Part shown: positions 29,744 through 34,876 of the stretch, one piece after another
Layout: each line of letters begins with the position of its first letter
Numbering within the stretch: the stretch's first letter is position 1
Source: an uncultured Bacteroidales bacterium
Lineage (GTDB): Bacteria > Bacteroidota > Bacteroidia > Bacteroidales > UBA932
DNA length: 64,000 nt
Direction: 5' to 3'
Assembly: GCA_900318015.1 (NCBI GenBank)
Contig: ONJB01000006.1
Coordinates: forward strand, 9,658 to 73,657
Program-made: the position numbers and the translations under genes
The notes under the pieces: model-generated
Told to the model about the DNA's origin: nothing
What the model saw: the letters and a program-made list of their open reading frames with translations, nothing else
Databases searched by the model: none

Positions 29744-32030
29744 ACTCTCCCTGGCCGCCCTGCTCCTGGCCTGGCCGCTCTTTGCCCAGACCGAATATGT
29801 CAACCCGTTCATCGGCACGACCAATTTCGGGGCCTGCAACCCGGGCGCCGTGACGCCAAACGGGCTGATGAGCGTAACGCCGTTCAATGTGATGGGCTCC
29901 CGCCTCAACACCTGGGACAAGGACAGCCGCTGGTGGTCCACGCCGTACGTGGAAGAGAACCGCTATTTCACGGGCTTTGCCCATGTGAACCTGTCCGGCG
30001 TCGGCTGCCCGGAGCTGGGTTCCGTCCTTACCATGCCCACCACGGGACCGCTGGAGGTCGATTACCACGCCTACGGAAGCGAGTATTCCAACGAGCAGGC
30101 GCACCCCGGCTACTATTCCAACCGGCTGGCGAGCGGCATCCTGACGGAAGCCACCGCCACCACCCGGACCTCGCTGGAACGCTATACCTTCCCGGCCGGG
30201 GCCGGCAATATTCTCGTGAACCTGGGGGAAGGCCTGACCAACGAGTCCGGCGCCATGGTCCGCCGGGTTTCCACGACGGAAATCGAAGGGGTCAAGCTGA
30301 TGGGCACGTTCTGCTACAACCGGAACGCGGTGTTCCCGATGTACTTCGTCCTGCGTGTGAGCAAGACGCCGGACCGCAGCGGCTATTGGAAGAAGCAGCG
30401 GCCGATGACCGCCGAGGCCGCCTGGGATTCCGATGCGGGCCGCTACAAGCTGTACGAGGCCTATTCCCGGGATCTGTCCGGCGAGGACATCGGCTTCTGG
30501 TTCCGCTATGAGAACCTCACCGAGGGCGAACAGGTGATGCTGCAGGTGGGCGTTTCCTTCGTGAGCATCGACAACGCGCGGGAGAACCTGGAGGCCGAGC
30601 AGCAGGGGTTCGACTTCGACGGGGTCTGCGCGGCCGCGTCAAAGGCCTGGCAGGAACAGCTGGGCCGCATCCGCGTGACCGGCGGCACGGAGGATCAGAA
30701 AACCATCTTCTATACCGCCCTGTATCACGCATTGATCCATCCGAACATCCTGGAGGACGTGAACGGGGAGTATCCGCTGATGGAATTCGGCAATCCGGAG
30801 GCCGTGAACAGCATCCCGTTCGCGACCGGACGCAACGGGATCGCGCAGCGCAAGCTGCGTGCCCGCGGCCTGGGCCGCGTTCCGGAGGGGCAGCACCGCT
30901 ACACGGTTTTCTCCCTGTGGGACACCTGCCGGAACCTGCACCAGCTCCTGACGCTGCTCTATCCGGAAAAGCAGATCGACATGGCGCGGTCCGTGGTGAA
31001 CATGTACCGCGAGTGGGGCTGGATGCCCAAGTGGGAACTGTACGGCCGCGAGACCTTCACGATGGAGGGCGACCCGGTGATTCCGATGCTGACGGACACT
31101 TACCTCAAAGGCTTGACGGACTTCGACATCGCCACGGCCTACGAGGCTTTCCTGAAGTCCGCCGACACGCCCGGCGAAAAGAACCGGATGCGGCCGGACG
31201 TGGATCCGTACATCGAGCGGGGGTATGTGCCGCTGGGCTGGTTCGCGCAGGATTTCTCCGGCGACAACTCCGTGTCCCACGCCCTGGAGTACTATATGGC
31301 CGATGCGGCGCTCGCCCGCCTCGCCACGGCCCTCGGACACCCCGAGGACGCCGCCAAGTACCGCCAGCGCTCGCTGGGCTACAAGCACTACTGGTCCCCG
31401 GAATACGGTTGCCTGCGGCCACTGCGGAAGGATGGCACCTTCCTCGAGCCGTTCAACCCGCGCCAGGGCGAGAACTTCGAGCCCGTGCCGGGCTTCCATG
31501 AGGGAAGCGCCTGGAACTATACGTTCTACGTGCCGCACGACGTGGACGGCCTTATCAAGCTCACGGGCGGCTCCAAAGCCTTCGTGAAAGCCCTGAACAA
31601 GGTTTTCAACGAAGGCCTGTACGATCCCGCCAACGAGCCGGACATCGCCTATCCGTACCTGTACAGCCGTGTGAAGGGCGAGCAGTGGCGCACCTGGAGC
31701 ACGGTGCACGACCTGCTGGCCAAGCACTACCACAATGCCCCGAACGGCATTCCCGGCAACGACGACACCGGTACGATGTCGGCCTGGGCCGTGTTCTCGA
31801 TGATGGGCTTCTACCCCGACTGCCCGGGCGACCCGTCCTACACCCTTACCCTGCCCGTCTTCGACCGCGTGGACATCGACCTGCCCGACGGCAAGACCCT
31901 GACGGTGACGAAAGCCGCCGGCGCCAAGCCCGCCAAGGGCACTACGGCTCGGGTCGGCAGCCGCAAAGTCTCCGACTACCGCATCTCCCACGACGCCCTC
32001 GTGAATGCGGGCACCATCAAGTGGCAGTAG
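29733..32030 (+). CDS. GH92 alpha-mannosidase
   Basis: Start reassigned to MRIRLSLAALL; YVNPFIGT, FYTALYH, FSLWDT, SHALEY, EGSAWNY, NEPD and PGNDDTGTMSAW. Confidence 0.93.
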   Translation: MRIRLSLAALLLAWPLFAQTEYVNPFIGTTNFGACNPGAVTPNGLMSVTPFNVMGSRLNTWDKDSRWWSTPYVEENRYFTGFAHVNLSGVGCPELGSVLTMPTTGPLEVDYHAYGSEYSNEQAHPGYYSNRLASGILTEATATTRTSLERYTFPAGAGNILVNLGEGLTNESGAMVRRVSTTEIEGVKLMGTFCYNRNAVFPMYFVLRVSKTPDRSGYWKKQRPMTAEAAWDSDAGRYKLYEAYSRDLSGEDIGFWFRYENLTEGEQVMLQVGVSFVSIDNARENLEAEQQGFDFDGVCAAASKAWQEQLGRIRVTGGTEDQKTIFYTALYHALIHPNILEDVNGEYPLMEFGNPEAVNSIPFATGRNGIAQRKLRARGLGRVPEGQHRYTVFSLWDTCRNLHQLLTLLYPEKQIDMARSVVNMYREWGWMPKWELYGRETFTMEGDPVIPMLTDTYLKGLTDFDIATAYEAFLKSADTPGEKNRMRPDVDPYIERGYVPLGWFAQDFSGDNSVSHALEYYMADAALARLATALGHPEDAAKYRQRSLGYKHYWSPEYGCLRPLRKDGTFLEPFNPRQGENFEPVPGFHEGSAWNYTFYVPHDVDGLIKLTGGSKAFVKALNKVFNEGLYDPANEPDIAYPYLYSRVKGEQWRTWSTVHDLLAKHYHNAPNGIPGNDDTGTMSAWAVFSMMGFYPDCPGDPSYTLTLPVFDRVDIDLPDGKTLTVTKAAGAKPAKGTTARVGSRKVSDYRISHDALVNAGTIKWQ

Positions 32031-32718
32031 GCCTTTTCACCTTCACCGCCACGCGGGAACCGTCGGGGAGGAAGAGGGGAACGAGCGGCTTGATCACGAT
32101 GCCTTCGCAAAGGTTGCCGTCGATGGACGGGAGCCCCAGCTCACCCGGAACGGCCGTCGGGAAGACGTGCGGGTAGGCCAGGCAATCATCCAGAAGACCG
32201 ACGAAACGGTTCCAGGCGTACAGGAGGCCGGCATCCGAAAAGAGGGCGTTCGCCTCCATCACCGGCAGGAAGAAGCCGCCGTCTTTCGTGAAGACATAGA
32301 TGTCAAAGGCATAGAAATCGCGCCCCGGAGCATACCAGATGCCCTTTTGGACGGGCCAGTCCAAGTGGTCCAGCGCCACGTCCGGATGCGGGTAATGCCC
32401 GCCGAACAGTTCTCCGTAGACCGCGATGGAAGTCATCTCCGGGTGAGACAACCGGAGCCGGTTGTAGATGTGATAGACATGCCCCGAGTATCGCTCGAGG
32501 ACCTGTTGATAGCCGAAGAAAGGCTCCAACGGATCCAGGATGGCCGTCCGCCGGGCCATCCGGACCTCCAGGTCGTCACACAGGAAGGAGACGTTCGCCC
32601 CGTCGACCTTCTCCTGCACGGCGAAGAGGGTTCCGATCTCCACATTTTCACGCACTTGCGCCATCCACGCCGCATCCGCGGCATTCCCGATGGAAGGATA
32701 AGGTTTGAACTGGATCAT
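32017..32718 (-). CDS. Rnl2-type ATP-dependent RNA ligase, adenylyltransferase domain only (C-terminal domain absent)
   Basis: Start reassigned to MIQFKPYPSI (233 aa). Motifs: I QEKVDGAN, RR, III GELFGGHYPHP, IIIa FYAFDI, IV EGIVIKP, V RVAVKVK, then a stop 5 codons later inside the antisense of the GH92 3' end. Confidence 0.85.
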   Translation of the reverse strand: MIQFKPYPSIGNAADAAWMAQVRENVEIGTLFAVQEKVDGANVSFLCDDLEVRMARRTAILDPLEPFFGYQQVLERYSGHVYHIYNRLRLSHPEMTSIAVYGELFGGHYPHPDVALDHLDWPVQKGIWYAPGRDFYAFDIYVFTKDGGFFLPVMEANALFSDAGLLYAWNRFVGLLDDCLAYPHVFPTAVPGELGLPSIDGNLCEGIVIKPLVPLFLPDGSRVAVKVKRPTAT

Positions 32719-32772
32719 GGCCGTTTTCTCTTTTTTGCAAAGTTCGGGAAGGGAAAAGAAAAGGGTAGCATG

Positions 32773-32814
32773 ATTGCAAGGCTTGCAATGTCGGATTTCC
32801 TGCAAGGCTTGCAG
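32773..32814. promoter_or_regulatory. Tandem perfect palindromes (core TGCAAGGCTTGCA), candidate operator pair
   Basis: ATTGCAAG-G-CTTGCAAT at 32773-32789 and CTGCAAG-G-CTTGCAG at 32800-32814; cores 26 bp apart; between divergent near-consensus -7 boxes (GAACTTTG minus 32738-32745; TATCTTCG plus 32845-32852). Confidence 0.75.
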
Positions 32815-32853
32815 ACTTTTTGAGGCCGGACCGCAAAAAATGCGTATCTTCGT

Positions 32854-33432
32854 ATGATGATTGGCTGGGAAGCACAACTCTGGCTCCAGCATTGCCTGGA
32901 AAGCGGGGTCCTGGAGGACCCGGCCGTGGATTATCTGGCGGAGCGGGTGGACGAAATGGACGCCGCCGCCCTGCTGGAGGCCATGGGGCTGCTCCGGAAA
33001 CGGCTCGCCGAGATCGCGGTCCTGGAAGGGACGGATGACGGGGAAAGGATCCGAGTCACGAAAGACTACCGCATCCTCCTTCCCGACCGATTCGACACGG
33101 AAATCCGTCTCCGGCCGCTCGTGAAGACGGTGTTCCTGCTCTTCCTCCGCCATCCGGAAGGCATCCGGTTCGGGGACCTGCCAGCGTACCGGAACGAGCT
33201 CATGGACCTGTACCTGGGCATCACCCGGCGTCCCAGCGGATTGGAGACCGAAGCGAGCATCGACCGCCTCATCGACCCGCGCGACAACTCCATCCACGAG
33301 AAGGCGGCGAACCTGGCGGCGGCCCTCTCGAAATACTTTCCGCCGGAAAGGGTGCACGCCTACACGCTGACGGGCAAGGCCGGCGCTCCGAAACGCATCC
33401 GGCTGGACCGGAGCCGGGTAGAATGGGAATGA
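32854..33432 (+). CDS. Uncharacterised protein, putative winged-helix-type DNA-binding regulator
   Basis: C-terminal LRPLVKTVFLLFLRHPEGIRF...NSIHEKAANL...GKAGAPKRIRLD resembles a recurrent Bacteroidales hypothetical family with an OmpR-like helix/wing pattern. No signal peptide; ATG lies right after the -7 box (likely leaderless). Confidence 0.55.
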   Translation: MMIGWEAQLWLQHCLESGVLEDPAVDYLAERVDEMDAAALLEAMGLLRKRLAEIAVLEGTDDGERIRVTKDYRILLPDRFDTEIRLRPLVKTVFLLFLRHPEGIRFGDLPAYRNELMDLYLGITRRPSGLETEASIDRLIDPRDNSIHEKAANLAAALSKYFPPERVHAYTLTGKAGAPKRIRLDRSRVEWE

Positions 33433-33445
33433 CACAAAACGCGAT

Positions 33446-34876
33446 ATGAAACCACAGAAAGCACTGATCCTGACCCTCCTCGCGCTGGTCGCCTGTGCGC
33501 CCAAGCCGAAACAGGAGGAAAAAACCACGAAACTGTACACCGACCGTCCTCCCGTGGAGGAGCGCGCCTTCGTCTCCCCCGCCGTCGATGCGGCCACTGA
33601 GGCCATCGCCGCGCAGATCACCCATCCCAAGCTGCAGGAGATGTTCCGGAAGTGCTTCCCGAACACCCTGGACACCACCGTCCATTACGCCGAGGATGAG
33701 GACGGGCGGCCCGACACCTACGTCTACACCGGCGACATCCCGGCCATGTGGCTCCGCGACTCCGGCGCCCAGGTCTGGCCCTACCTCGCCTTCGTGGGCG
33801 AGGACGACGCCCTCCGGAAGATGATCGCGGGCGTGATCAACCGCCAGTTCAAATGCATCCTCATCGACCCGTACGCCAACGCCTTCAACGTGGACCCCAT
33901 CGGCCCGGCCGACGACACCGACCTCCCGAAGCCCGGTCCGTACGTGTTCGAGCGCAAGTGGGAGATCGACTCCCAGTGCTATCCGGTGCGCCTCGCCTAC
34001 GCCTACTGGCAGAAGACCGGCGACACATCCATCTTCGGCAACCTGTGGATGAAGACGGCGAAGACCATCCTCGCCACCTTCAAGGAGCAGCAGCGAAAGG
34101 AAGGACACGGAAGCTACACCTTCCTGCGCGTCACCGACCGCCAGCTGGACACCAAGTGCGTGGTGGGCCGGGGCAATCCGGTGAAGCCCGTCGGCCTTAT
34201 CGCCTCGTCCTTCCGCCCCTCCGACGACGCCACCACCTTCGAGTTCCTCGTGCCCTCCAACTTCATGGCAGTCACCACCTTGCAGAAGATGGCGGAGATC
34301 CTCTCGGCCGTGAACGGCGAGAACGCGATGGCCGTGGAGTGCCTGGCCCTGGCCGACGAAGTCTCCGCCGCCCTGCAGCAGTATGCCGTCGTGGACCATC
34401 CCAAGTACGGGAAGATCTATGCCTATGAGGTGGACGGTTTCGGCTCGCACCAGCTGATGGACGACGCCAATGTCCCGTCCCTCCTCGCCCTCGGCTACCT
34501 GGACCCGGAGCGGTTCGACGACCCCGTCTACCTGAACACCCGGAAGTTCGTCTGGAGCGAGGACAACCCGTATTTCAAGCGGGGCAAGGCCGGCGAAGGC
34601 ATCGGCGGCCCGCACGCGGGCATCGAGAATGTCTGGCCCATGTCCATCCTGATGAAGGCCTTCACGGCCCGGGACGATGAAGAAATCGTCGCCTGCCTCA
34701 CCCAGATCCTCCGCACCGACGCCGGCACCGGTTTCATGCACGAGTCCTTCCACAAGGACGATGCAAACAATTTCTCCCGCCCCTGGTTCGCCTGGGCGAA
34801 CACCCTCTTCGGCGAGCTCATCATGAAACTCGTCCATGACGGCAAACTCGAACTCCTCAACAACCTGCCCCAATGA
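33446..34876 (+). CDS. GH125 exo-alpha-1,6-mannosidase family lipoprotein
   Basis: Lipobox LVAC; TGDIPAMWLRDS, ERKWEIDS, MDDANVPSLL, WPMS, MHESF and WFAWAN. Confidence 0.92.
   Translation: MKPQKALILTLLALVACAPKPKQEEKTTKLYTDRPPVEERAFVSPAVDAATEAIAAQITHPKLQEMFRKCFPNTLDTTVHYAEDEDGRPDTYVYTGDIPAMWLRDSGAQVWPYLAFVGEDDALRKMIAGVINRQFKCILIDPYANAFNVDPIGPADDTDLPKPGPYVFERKWEIDSQCYPVRLAYAYWQKTGDTSIFGNLWMKTAKTILATFKEQQRKEGHGSYTFLRVTDRQLDTKCVVGRGNPVKPVGLIASSFRPSDDATTFEFLVPSNFMAVTTLQKMAEILSAVNGENAMAVECLALADEVSAALQQYAVVDHPKYGKIYAYEVDGFGSHQLMDDANVPSLLALGYLDPERFDDPVYLNTRKFVWSEDNPYFKRGKAGEGIGGPHAGIENVWPMSILMKAFTARDDEEIVACLTQILRTDAGTGFMHESFHKDDANNFSRPWFAWANTLFGELIMKLVHDGKLELLNNLPQ

What the first reader, a model, noticed from the sequence alone, without database searches (positions are those of the whole stretch)
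32773..32814. Two perfect palindromes with an identical 13-bp core between the ligase and its putative regulator
Seen: 17-bp ATTGCAAGGCTTGCAAT and 15-bp CTGCAAGGCTTGCAG are both perfect dyads around a central G, with cores 26 bp apart (about 2.5 helical turns). Their outer bases differ but remain complementary (AT/AT versus C/G). Each lies just upstream of the expected -33 region of one of the two divergent promoters. Inference: cognate operators of the 192-aa protein, which would give a DNA motif to an uncharacterised regulator family.
Basis: partly seen in the sequence, partly recalled or inferred. Interest (0 to 1): 0.7.

Follow-up and report, generated by a model that had tools for sequence, protein, structure and literature searches.

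The report
Paired operator sites of new regulator
Two copies of a short mirror-symmetric DNA word lie between an RNA-ligase gene and an unknown 192-aa gene in a rumen Bacteroidales bacterium; comparison with about 100 related loci suggests they are docking sites of that protein, which belongs to a large undescribed family of DNA-binding regulators, though binding was not tested.

Summary
ATTGCAAGGCTTGCAAT (32773-32789) and CTGCAAGGCTTGCAG (32800-32814) are perfect dyads with centres 26 bp apart. The 13-mer core occurs nowhere else in the 3.2-Mb genome.

- The pair recurs with 26-bp spacing in 32 fetched loci (25 bp in one more) next to homologues down to 49% identity, in different genomic contexts. 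It persists where the ligase is replaced or degraded.
- The invariant core is CAAG-S-CTTG, and the flanks change symmetrically.
- Palindrome 1 sits 35-36 bp from the divergent gene's -7 box in all 32 loci, although the sequence between is not conserved. The distance from palindrome 2 to the regulator's own -7 box varies (16 to 320 bp).
- The protein's basic C-terminal domain models confidently. Its best structural matches are all OmpR/PhoB/ToxR-type winged-helix DNA-binding domains, but no Pfam or NCBIfam model matches it.

The same palindrome, as a single copy, follows the stop codon of many longer family members. There it lies 35 or 41-43 bp upstream of the next gene's -7 box.

Most likely this is a position-locked activator site for the neighbouring gene plus an autoregulatory site. 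I rate it a new variant of a known kind, of moderate interest.

The parts
32773..32789 (.). Palindrome 1: ATTGCAAG-G-CTTGCAAT, a 17-bp perfect dyad (core CAAG-S-CTTG)
   Evidence: It is conserved in 32 loci. Its centre lies 42-43 bp from the C of CAAA of the divergent -7 box in all 32.
32790..32799 (.). Spacer GTCGGATTTC, which keeps the centres 26 bp apart. Its T-rich 3' part recurs in distant loci.
   Evidence: It is nearly invariant in the main clade. The length is conserved in distant lineages, but the sequence only partly.
32800..32814 (.). Palindrome 2: CTGCAAG-G-CTTGCAG, a 15-bp perfect dyad
   Evidence: L039 carries the symmetric variant CGGCAAGGCTTGCCG.
32738..32745 (-). Putative -7 box of the ligase promoter (GAACTTTG, consensus TAnnTTTG), 19 nt upstream of the ligase ATG
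   Evidence: The consensus is from PMC7366714. No transcription start data were available.
32845..32852 (+). Putative -7 box of the 192-aa gene (TATCTTCG), preceded by a conserved AAAAAATGCG. The mRNA is probably leaderless or has a very short leader.
   Evidence: The box is conserved in all loci, while its distance to the ATG varies from 1 to 18 nt, so it is not coding.
32819..32822 (+). TTTG, a possible -33 element of the 192-aa gene's promoter, 22 nt upstream of the -7 box and 4 bp after palindrome 2
   Evidence: The T-run is conserved, but the G is not. This is a weak assignment.
32017..32718 (-). 233-aa stand-alone Rnl2-type RNA ligase (nucleotidyltransferase domain only). It is the divergent target gene.
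   Evidence: PF09414 1e-19; TIGR02307 4.6e-33, which is below that model's cut-off; phrog_548.
32854..33432 (+). 192-aa putative regulator (P0001): an acidic N-terminal helical hairpin plus a basic C-terminal winged-helix domain (about residues 62-192). The real start is probably the second ATG at 32857.
33446..34876 (+). GH125 alpha-mannosidase gene, starting 13 nt after the regulator's stop with no -7 box of its own in between. It is probably co-transcribed with the regulator gene.
   Evidence: Co-transcription is an inference.

Best explanation
The two palindromes are the DNA sites of the neighbouring 192-aa protein. This protein is a stand-alone winged-helix (OmpR/ToxR-like fold) transcription factor of an undescribed Bacteroidales family, which recognises the dyad RCAAG-S-CTTGY, probably as a symmetric dimer.

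Palindrome 1 is centred 35-36 bp upstream of the ligase -7 box, about -48 from the inferred start. From there it most likely works as a position-locked activator site for the divergent gene, which is the RNA ligase here. That promoter has no recognisable -33 element. Palindrome 2, 2.5 helical turns away, probably stabilises binding and sets the regulator's own expression. In lineages where it sits 16-17 bp from the regulator's own -7 box it would give autorepression. In this clade the effect is uncertain.

Shown: sequence, uniqueness, conservation, spacing, fold. Inferred: binding, dimer, activation, and the signal, which is unknown.
For: - Uniqueness: the exact 13-mer occurs only at these two places in the genome. 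No other RCAAGSCTTGY in the genome lies in promoter geometry.
- Conservation: the block 32785-32823 is the most conserved stretch of the whole ligase-to-regulator region (0.94-0.98 column identity), although the proteins are only 62-93% identical.
- Co-occurrence: the dual dyad with 26-bp spacing is in 32 fetched loci (25 bp in L153), including homologues of 58%, 57%, 51% and 49% identity in unrelated genomic contexts. It stays with the regulator when the partner gene changes (L045, L153, L156, L006/L041). It is absent from 400 other genomes of the order.
- Dyad symmetry is maintained by symmetric changes. Cells are 89% paired, and the covariation score is 0.199 against 0.123 in shuffles (0 of 500 reach it). 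The central base is G or C in either orientation, in all four combinations.
- Geometry: the centre of palindrome 1 is 42-43 bp from the end of the divergent -7 box in 32 of 32 loci, while the 26-27 bp between are not conserved.
- Protein: AF2 pLDDT is 91. The best-scoring PDB fold matches are almost all OmpR/PhoB/ToxR DNA-binding domains, led by ToxR-DNA 8b4d with probability 0.97. The C-terminal domain has pI 9.6. hhalign places its helices on OmpR alpha1 and alpha3.
- Family level: CAAGNCTTG is present in 59 of 80 loci of family members against about 5 expected. In long forms one copy lies just after the stop codon, 35 or 41-43 bp upstream of the next gene's TAnnTTTG box.
Against: - No binding, transcription start or expression data exist.
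- The fold matches have weak E-values (0.07-1). The Pfam Trans_reg_C model does not match, and hhalign is marginal (E 0.01, probability 4%).
- OmpR-type domains usually bind direct repeats in tandem, not an 11-bp dyad whose half-site centres are only about 6 bp apart. The binding geometry is therefore unexplained.
- Symmetric but variable outer bases (ATT/AAT, CT/AG, CGG/CCG, TCG/CGA) are also what a hairpin or cruciform would show.
- Most of the 32 loci come from closely related rumen genomes, so they are not independent. Only about five lineages are.
- Activator versus repressor rests on spacing alone.
Confidence: 0.66

Rival explanations
1. The dyads are operators, but for a different DNA-binding protein encoded elsewhere. 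The 192-aa protein would then be a ligase partner or a non-DNA-binding winged-helix protein.
For: Binding was not tested. The putative recognition helix (DNSIHEKAANLAAAL) is poor in basic residues. Sequence models of OmpR domains do not match.
Against: The motif is unique to this locus in the genome, so an unlinked regulator would have a one-site regulon. The motif travels with the 192-aa gene into unrelated contexts and persists without the ligase. It also accompanies long-form family members that share only the C-terminal domain.
Confidence: 0.12
2. The palindromes act as nucleic-acid hairpins. They could be stem-loops in an RNA (a leader, small RNA or terminator-like element, perhaps even a ligase substrate), or a cruciform or single-strand DNA structure.
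For: Each dyad keeps complementarity with variable outer bases. Palindrome 2 plus its T-run is flagged as terminator-like. In L029 and L030 the two copies can form one long hairpin with strong z-scores.
Against: - Both conserved -7 boxes lie between the palindromes and their genes, so neither predicted transcript contains them.
- No Rfam family matches.
- In the window the fold is no better than shuffles on the plus strand (z -0.44) and marginal on the minus strand (z -1.98).
- The inter-palindrome pairing model is not above shuffles.
- Mismatched pairs at +/-5 would be G-U wobbles on the plus strand in L045 but on the minus strand in L029 and L030, so no single strand explains them.
- The central base flips between G and C freely.
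- A fixed 35/42-bp distance to a -7 box is a DNA-level property.
Confidence: 0.1
3. The dyads are end or recombination sites of a small mobile cassette (ligase plus 192-aa gene), recognised by a recombinase or transposase rather than used for transcription control.
For: The cassette occurs in different genomic contexts: between GH92 and GH125 here, and between DUF1232 and DMT genes in L030. The family is sporadic, present in 10 of 201 genomes. Cargo next to family members is variable.
Against: The dyads lie in the middle of the cassette between the two genes, not at its ends. No recombinase gene is linked. The spacing to the -7 boxes is fixed. The half-sites are separated by a single base, so there is no room for a crossover region.
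Confidence: 0.04

Closest known systems
OmpR/PhoB/ToxR-type winged-helix effector domains (Pfam Trans_reg_C, PF00486), especially receiver-less members such as ToxR
   Same: The C-terminal domain has the same order of elements: a beta-sheet, then helices, then a C-terminal beta-hairpin wing. The best-scoring PDB fold matches are almost all of this class. The domain is basic. As with PhoB-type activators, the site lies just upstream of the core promoter of a gene that lacks the upstream promoter element.
   Different: There is no sequence-model match, and hhalign is only marginal. An extra helix of about 20-30 residues is inserted between helix 2 and the putative recognition helix. There is no receiver or membrane domain. 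The site is a compact dyad, not tandem direct repeats 10-11 bp apart.
RteC of the Bacteroides conjugative transposon CTnDOT (Pfam PF09357)
   Same: RteC is a small Bacteroides-specific activator with a winged-helix motif. It binds 50-70 nt upstream of the excision-operon promoter (PMC3809561). The geometry and host group are the same. RteC-family loci fetched here also show a palindrome between the regulator's stop codon and the next -7 box (L158, L160).
   Different: There is no detectable homology. PF09357 does not match the protein or the genome, and hhalign gives P 0.5. The palindrome sequences are different.
Divergent local regulator with paired palindromic operators next to RNA-repair genes in Bacteroidota
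   Same: A divergent regulator gene, paired palindromes in the shared promoter region, and an RNA-ligase-type target gene.
   Different: The regulator fold is different (no WYL or HTH-WYL domain; no Pfam match). The ligase is different (Rnl2-type, not RtcB). The motif is different. Those notes are unchecked AI notes, and I did not verify them here.

Membership tests
Local transcription-factor operator pair (generic class) | Dyad symmetry beyond chance, and uniqueness in the genome | tested here: met
Local transcription-factor operator pair (generic class) | Location in a promoter region at a conserved distance from core promoter elements | tested here: met
   42-43 bp to the divergent -7 box in 32 of 32 loci; 35 or 41-43 bp in long-form loci. 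The -7 boxes are inferred from the consensus, not from mapped transcription starts.
Local transcription-factor operator pair (generic class) | Co-occurrence of the motif with the regulator gene across different genomic contexts | tested here: met
Local transcription-factor operator pair (generic class) | Specific binding of the protein to the site | not testable with these tools
   Needs EMSA, footprinting or DAP-seq.
OmpR/PhoB-type winged helix (Trans_reg_C, PF00486) | Match to the family's sequence model | tested here: not met
   No Pfam hit at E <= 0.1. hhalign against 24 genuine domains gives E 0.01 and probability 4%.
OmpR/PhoB-type winged helix (Trans_reg_C, PF00486) | Fold: N-terminal beta-sheet, three-helix core with a recognition helix, C-terminal beta-hairpin wing | tested here: met
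   The AF2 model has pLDDT 91, with strands 66-84, helices 88-158 and strands 180-191. Nearly all of the best 25 Foldseek PDB hits are of this class, with target-normalised TM 0.45-0.60 for the DNA-binding-domain chains. One extra helix is inserted.
OmpR/PhoB-type winged helix (Trans_reg_C, PF00486) | Recognition of tandem direct repeats with about 10-11 bp periodicity | tested here: not met
   The sites are compact dyads, RCAAG-S-CTTGY. A 9-bp-period reading (TTGCAA N3 TTGCAA) holds only in the main clade.
RteC (PF09357) | Match to the family's sequence model, or profile similarity | tested here: not met
Intrinsic terminator or structured RNA family | Rfam match, or a stable stem followed by a U-run downstream of a gene | tested here: not met
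   No Rfam match. There is one weak terminator-like hit at palindrome 2 with no upstream gene on that strand. The fold z-scores in the window are -0.44 and -1.98.

The most novel reading that the evidence does not exclude
The 192-aa protein would be the minimal member of a large, unnamed Bacteroidales family of activators (about 2,000 clusters at 50% identity). All members would read one conserved dyad, RCAAG-S-CTTGY, placed 35 or 42 bp upstream of a -7 box. Regulator gene, dyad and promoter would form a portable switch that drives very different accessory cargo: RNA ligase, Fic/RhuM, VWA, ADP-ribosylglycohydrolase, DUF6717 and BspA-LRR genes. In this rumen clade the switch, inserted into a mannosidase operon, would also drive the GH125/GH92 genes downstream of it.
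Probability: 0.4. Interest if true: 0.7.

Novelty: new variant of a known kind. Interest (0 to 1): 0.58.

Why it matters
Few transcription factors of Bacteroidales have a known DNA motif, and the rules for activation at the unusual -33/-7 promoters of this phylum are poorly known.

This work gives a testable consensus site (RCAAG-S-CTTGY). It gives a fixed activator-like geometry (35-36 or 41-43 bp to the -7 box). It also gives a confident structural model for a family that has no Pfam or NCBIfam entry but about 2,000 sequence clusters.

The family controls varied accessory genes, including a stand-alone Rnl2-type RNA ligase. Finding its signal could therefore show when gut and rumen Bacteroidales switch on RNA-repair and similar functions.

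The compact module could also be useful as a genetic part for Bacteroides engineering.

Tried and rejected
- Sequence families: Pfam, NCBIfam, PADLOC and PHROGs scans of the 192-aa protein and of long-form relatives gave no family. A PDB sequence-profile search gave only noise.
- RNA: Rfam at a permissive threshold gave only noise.
- Sigma-70 promoter scan: none found, as expected for Bacteroidetes.
- Sigma-54 reading: I considered a reading of TGCA..TTGCA by eye and rejected it, because the GG-to-GC spacing is wrong.
- One long hairpin between the two palindromes: rejected, since the model is not above shuffles and the outer bases support intra-palindrome symmetry only.
- RteC membership: rejected.
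- Regulon in this genome: none beyond this locus.
- Family-wide habit of two palindromes: L069 is a 38%-identity short form divergent from an MGMT/Ogt gene, with two copies of an unrelated 35-bp palindrome. I considered it as support but left it aside, because an IS200/RAYT-like gene lies next to it and the palindromes may be REP-like elements.
- More distant short forms (L049, L154/155, L157) show no motif.
- Literature: the primary RteC paper (PMC3019952) is not held.

Full report
**Observation**

One search shows ATTGCAAGGCTTGCAAT at 32773-32789 and CTGCAAGGCTTGCAG at 32800-32814. Both are perfect dyads about a central G, and the centres (32781 and 32807) are 26 bp apart. They share the 13-mer TGCAAGGCTTGCA.

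The window holds exactly these two matches, against 0.00 expected in shuffles. The whole 3.2-Mb assembly holds the exact 13-mer nowhere else. Even the relaxed 9-mer CAAGSCTTG is rare in the genome: 15 copies against 37 for the reversed control word. No other RCAAGSCTTGY copy sits in promoter geometry.

**Surroundings**

- The left gene (32017-32718, minus strand) is a 233-aa stand-alone Rnl2-type RNA ligase: PF09414 1e-19, TIGR02307 4.6e-33 (below that model's cut-off), phrog_548.
- The right gene (32854-33432, plus strand) encodes a 192-aa protein, P0001. It has no match in Pfam, NCBIfam, PADLOC or PHROGs.
- A GH125 mannosidase gene starts 13 nt after its stop.
- Relatives identify the organism as an uncultured rumen or herbivore-gut Bacteroidales bacterium.
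- Bacteroidetes promoters use a -7 box TAnnTTTG and a weaker -33 TTTG (PMC7366714). Conserved -7-like boxes lie between each palindrome and its gene: GAACTTTG on the minus strand (32745-32738), 19 nt before the ligase ATG, and TATCTTCG (32845-32852) just before the P0001 ATG.
- The second box is conserved in all relatives, while its distance to the ATG varies from 1 to 18 nt. It is therefore a non-coding signal.
- Both palindromes therefore lie upstream of both predicted transcription starts.

**Conservation**

Fourteen genome loci and thirteen metagenome loci of close relatives keep the block GATTGCAAGSCTTGCAATGTCGGATTTCCTGCAAGGCTTGCAGACTTTTT almost unchanged. Their P0001 proteins are only 62-93% identical to P0001, and the flanking intergenic DNA varies freely. 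In a column-wise profile across the ligase, intergenic and P0001 regions, columns 32785-32823 score 0.94-0.98. That is the highest value in the region.

The more distant relatives are more telling:
- P0125 (58% identity, L029).
- L045 (57%).
- P0129 (51%, L153).
- P0128 (49%, L030-L033). This one lies in a completely different context, with GrpE, MFS and DUF1232 on one side and DMT and PGM on the other.

All of these have two dyads with the same invariant core CAAG-S-CTTG. The centres are 26 bp apart, or 25 bp in L153. P0133 (41%, L156) has one perfect GGCAAGGCTTGCC at the equivalent position.

The dual pattern CAAGSCTTG-N17-CAAGSCTTG was found in none of 400 other genomes of the order.

**The motif follows the regulator, not the ligase**

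- In L045, L153 and L156 the divergent gene is not a ligase; it encodes small unknown proteins.
- In L006 and L041 a RhuM/Fic-family gene has been inserted between the ligase and its promoter.
- In L010 and L044 the ligase has lost its N-terminus.

In all of these the dyads and the P0001 homologue are kept.

**Symmetry**

I tested ten distinct versions of the 43-bp block.
- Intra-palindrome partner positions are complementary in 89% of cells. There are symmetric double changes at +/-5 (G..C to A..T), +/-6 (T..A to G..C, for example CGGCAAGGCTTGCCG in L039) and +/-8.
- The covariation score is 0.199 against 0.123 in shuffles, and 0 of 500 shuffles reach it.
- A model in which palindrome 1 pairs with palindrome 2 is no better than shuffles.
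- The central base is G or C. All four combinations (G,G; C,G; C,C; G,C) occur, and only L153 has an A.

A G:C pair whose orientation does not matter is what a two-fold symmetric DNA site predicts.

**Geometry**

The centre of palindrome 1 lies 42-43 bp from the C of the CAAA that ends the divergent -7 box, which is 35-36 bp from the first base of the box. This holds in all 32 loci, including the distant lineages, although the 26-27 bp in between share no sequence and contain no -33-like TTTG.

The distance from palindrome 2 to P0001's own -7 box is not fixed. It is 38-40 bp in the main clade, 34 in L030, 28 in L016 and 16-17 in L029 and L045. In L038 it is 320 bp, because a roughly 280-bp element with inverted ends has been inserted.

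A strict distance with free sequence is the signature of a site that must be positioned relative to RNA polymerase. I therefore favour activation of the divergent gene from about -48. Autoregulation would be looser: repression where palindrome 2 overlaps the -33 region, as in L029 and L045, and an uncertain effect in this clade. This step is inference from spacing only.

**The protein**

- An exhaustive search found 2,040 representative clusters (E <= 0.001) that share the C-terminal roughly 130 residues. Most are 330-500 aa proteins with other N-terminal parts.
- The family is sporadic: 10 of 201 genomes of the order carry it.
- With a 32-sequence alignment, AlphaFold2 gives pLDDT 91. The model has an N-terminal helical hairpin. 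After that come three short strands, helices at 88-99, 106-123, 129-140 and 146-158, and a terminal beta-hairpin.
- The best-scoring Foldseek matches against the PDB are almost all OmpR/PhoB/ToxR-type DNA-binding domains: ToxR bound to DNA, YycF, OmpR, GlnR, ArlR, SaeR, AdeR, CovR, VicR and PhoP. E-values are weak (0.07-1), but probability reaches 0.97 and target-normalised TM is 0.45-0.60 for the DNA-binding-domain chains.
- The C-terminal domain has pI 9.6 and the N-terminal part pI 4.2.
- Profile comparison with 24 genuine Trans_reg_C domains from related genomes is marginal (E 0.01, probability 4%). It does align LFLxHPEG and NSINxxxSRL with OmpR helices 1 and 3.

I therefore call it a divergent OmpR-like winged helix with one inserted helix. 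It is not a member of PF00486.

**Family-wide extension**

CAAGNCTTG occurs in 59 of 80 metagenome loci fetched with the family alignment, against about 5 expected in 327 kb.

In long-form loci a single copy lies 3-40 nt after the homologue's stop codon, or overlaps it. Examples are CTGCAAGGCTTGCAG, TTTCACAAGGCTTGTGA and CGCAAGCCTTGCG. Its centre is 35 bp (8 distinct loci) or 41-43 bp (9 distinct loci) upstream of the first base of the next gene's TAnnTTTG box. In the 42-bp class a canonical TTTGG lies 19-20 nt before the box. Two or three of nine independent genome loci show the same arrangement.

The genes behind these promoters are diverse: VWA, DUF6717, BspA-type LRR, ADP-ribosylglycohydrolase, a tubulin/FtsZ-like protein, a Sel1-repeat protein, and unknowns.

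The dyad is therefore a property of the protein family's conserved C-terminal domain. This is strong indirect evidence that this domain reads it.

**Rivals**

- An unlinked regulator is unlikely. It would have a one-site regulon, and its site would have to travel with this gene family.
- RNA or DNA hairpins cannot be fully excluded, because symmetric covariation fits both. Several points argue against them:
  - The dyads lie upstream of both -7 boxes.
  - Nothing in Rfam matches.
  - The folds in the window are not better than shuffles.
  - Would-be wobble pairs fall on different strands in different lineages.
  - The free G/C centre and the fixed distance to -7 boxes point to DNA.
- A mobile-element end is unlikely, because the dyads are central in the cassette and no recombinase is linked.

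**Weak points**

- There are no binding, transcription-start or expression data.
- I cannot explain how a winged helix reads half-sites only about 6 bp apart.
- The 32 loci represent only about five independent lineages.

**Comparison with known systems**

By fold, the closest relatives are receiver-less OmpR/ToxR-type regulators.

By function and host, the closest is RteC of CTnDOT. RteC is a Bacteroides winged-helix activator that binds 50-70 nt upstream of its target promoter (PMC3809561). RteC shows no homology to P0001.

**Verdict**

This is a new variant of a known kind: a local regulator with paired operators. Its added value is that it gives a consensus site and a promoter geometry to a large unnamed family.

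Noticed in passing
L038:812-1095: A roughly 280-bp GC-rich insertion with inverted ends (ACGGTGGTT...AACCACCGT, GGTGGTGCGGGCG...CGCGCCACCACC) separates palindrome 2 from the regulator's -7 box in one rumen relative. It looks like a miniature mobile element and is a natural spacing mutant.
   Followed up: partly
L006:1900-2870 and L041 (same arrangement): A 331-aa RhuM/Fic-DOC family gene (PF13310, PF02661) is inserted exactly between the ligase start codon and the ligase promoter. It has taken over the dyad-controlled promoter.
   Followed up: partly
L010:2533-2844 and L044:1993-2331: In two relatives the ligase gene has lost about 40 N-terminal codons (MIQFEPAAFLCDDLDV...), including the lysine motif region. 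It is probably a pseudogene, yet the dyads and regulator stay intact.
   Followed up: no
L069:1811-3570: A 38%-identity short-form homologue is divergent from an MGMT/Ogt-type alkyltransferase gene (PCHRV motif). Two copies of an unrelated 35-bp palindrome (GCGAGTAGTGGTCCA..TGGACCACTACTCGC) lie between them. An IS200/RAYT-like gene follows, so these may be REP-like elements.
   Followed up: partly
window 32845-32860: The regulator's -7 box ends 1 nt before the first ATG and 4 nt before the second. The mRNA is probably leaderless, starting at the second ATG (MIGWEA, as in many orthologues). Such short leaders are rare in B. thetaiotaomicron (about 3.7% of 5' UTRs are under 10 nt, PMC7366714).
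   Followed up: partly
window 33433-33445: No -7 box or terminator lies between the regulator's stop and the GH125 start (13 nt). The distal mannosidase genes (GH125, a GH92-like gene and the following genes) are therefore probably transcribed from the regulator's promoter. In L016 the GH125 gene is missing and the GH92-like gene follows directly.
   Followed up: partly
L145 (G410:C11), 49-2844: In another genus of the same family a GH92-like domain and GH125 lie in one open frame of 1,215 aa with no stop between them. This may be a natural GH92-GH125 fusion.
   Followed up: no
L158 and L160, downstream of the RteC-family genes: RteC-family (PF09357) genes are also followed by a palindrome (CTACCAA..TTGGTAG; TTCAACTTGAATTCAAGTTGAA) and then a -7 box. 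The arrangement of regulator, dyad and next promoter may be a common Bacteroidales design.
   Followed up: no
window 32781 and 32807, and the same positions in relatives: The central base of each dyad switches between G and C repeatedly among close relatives and is almost never A or T. Template switching at palindromes could produce such flips, and also the symmetric double changes in the arms.
   Followed up: no
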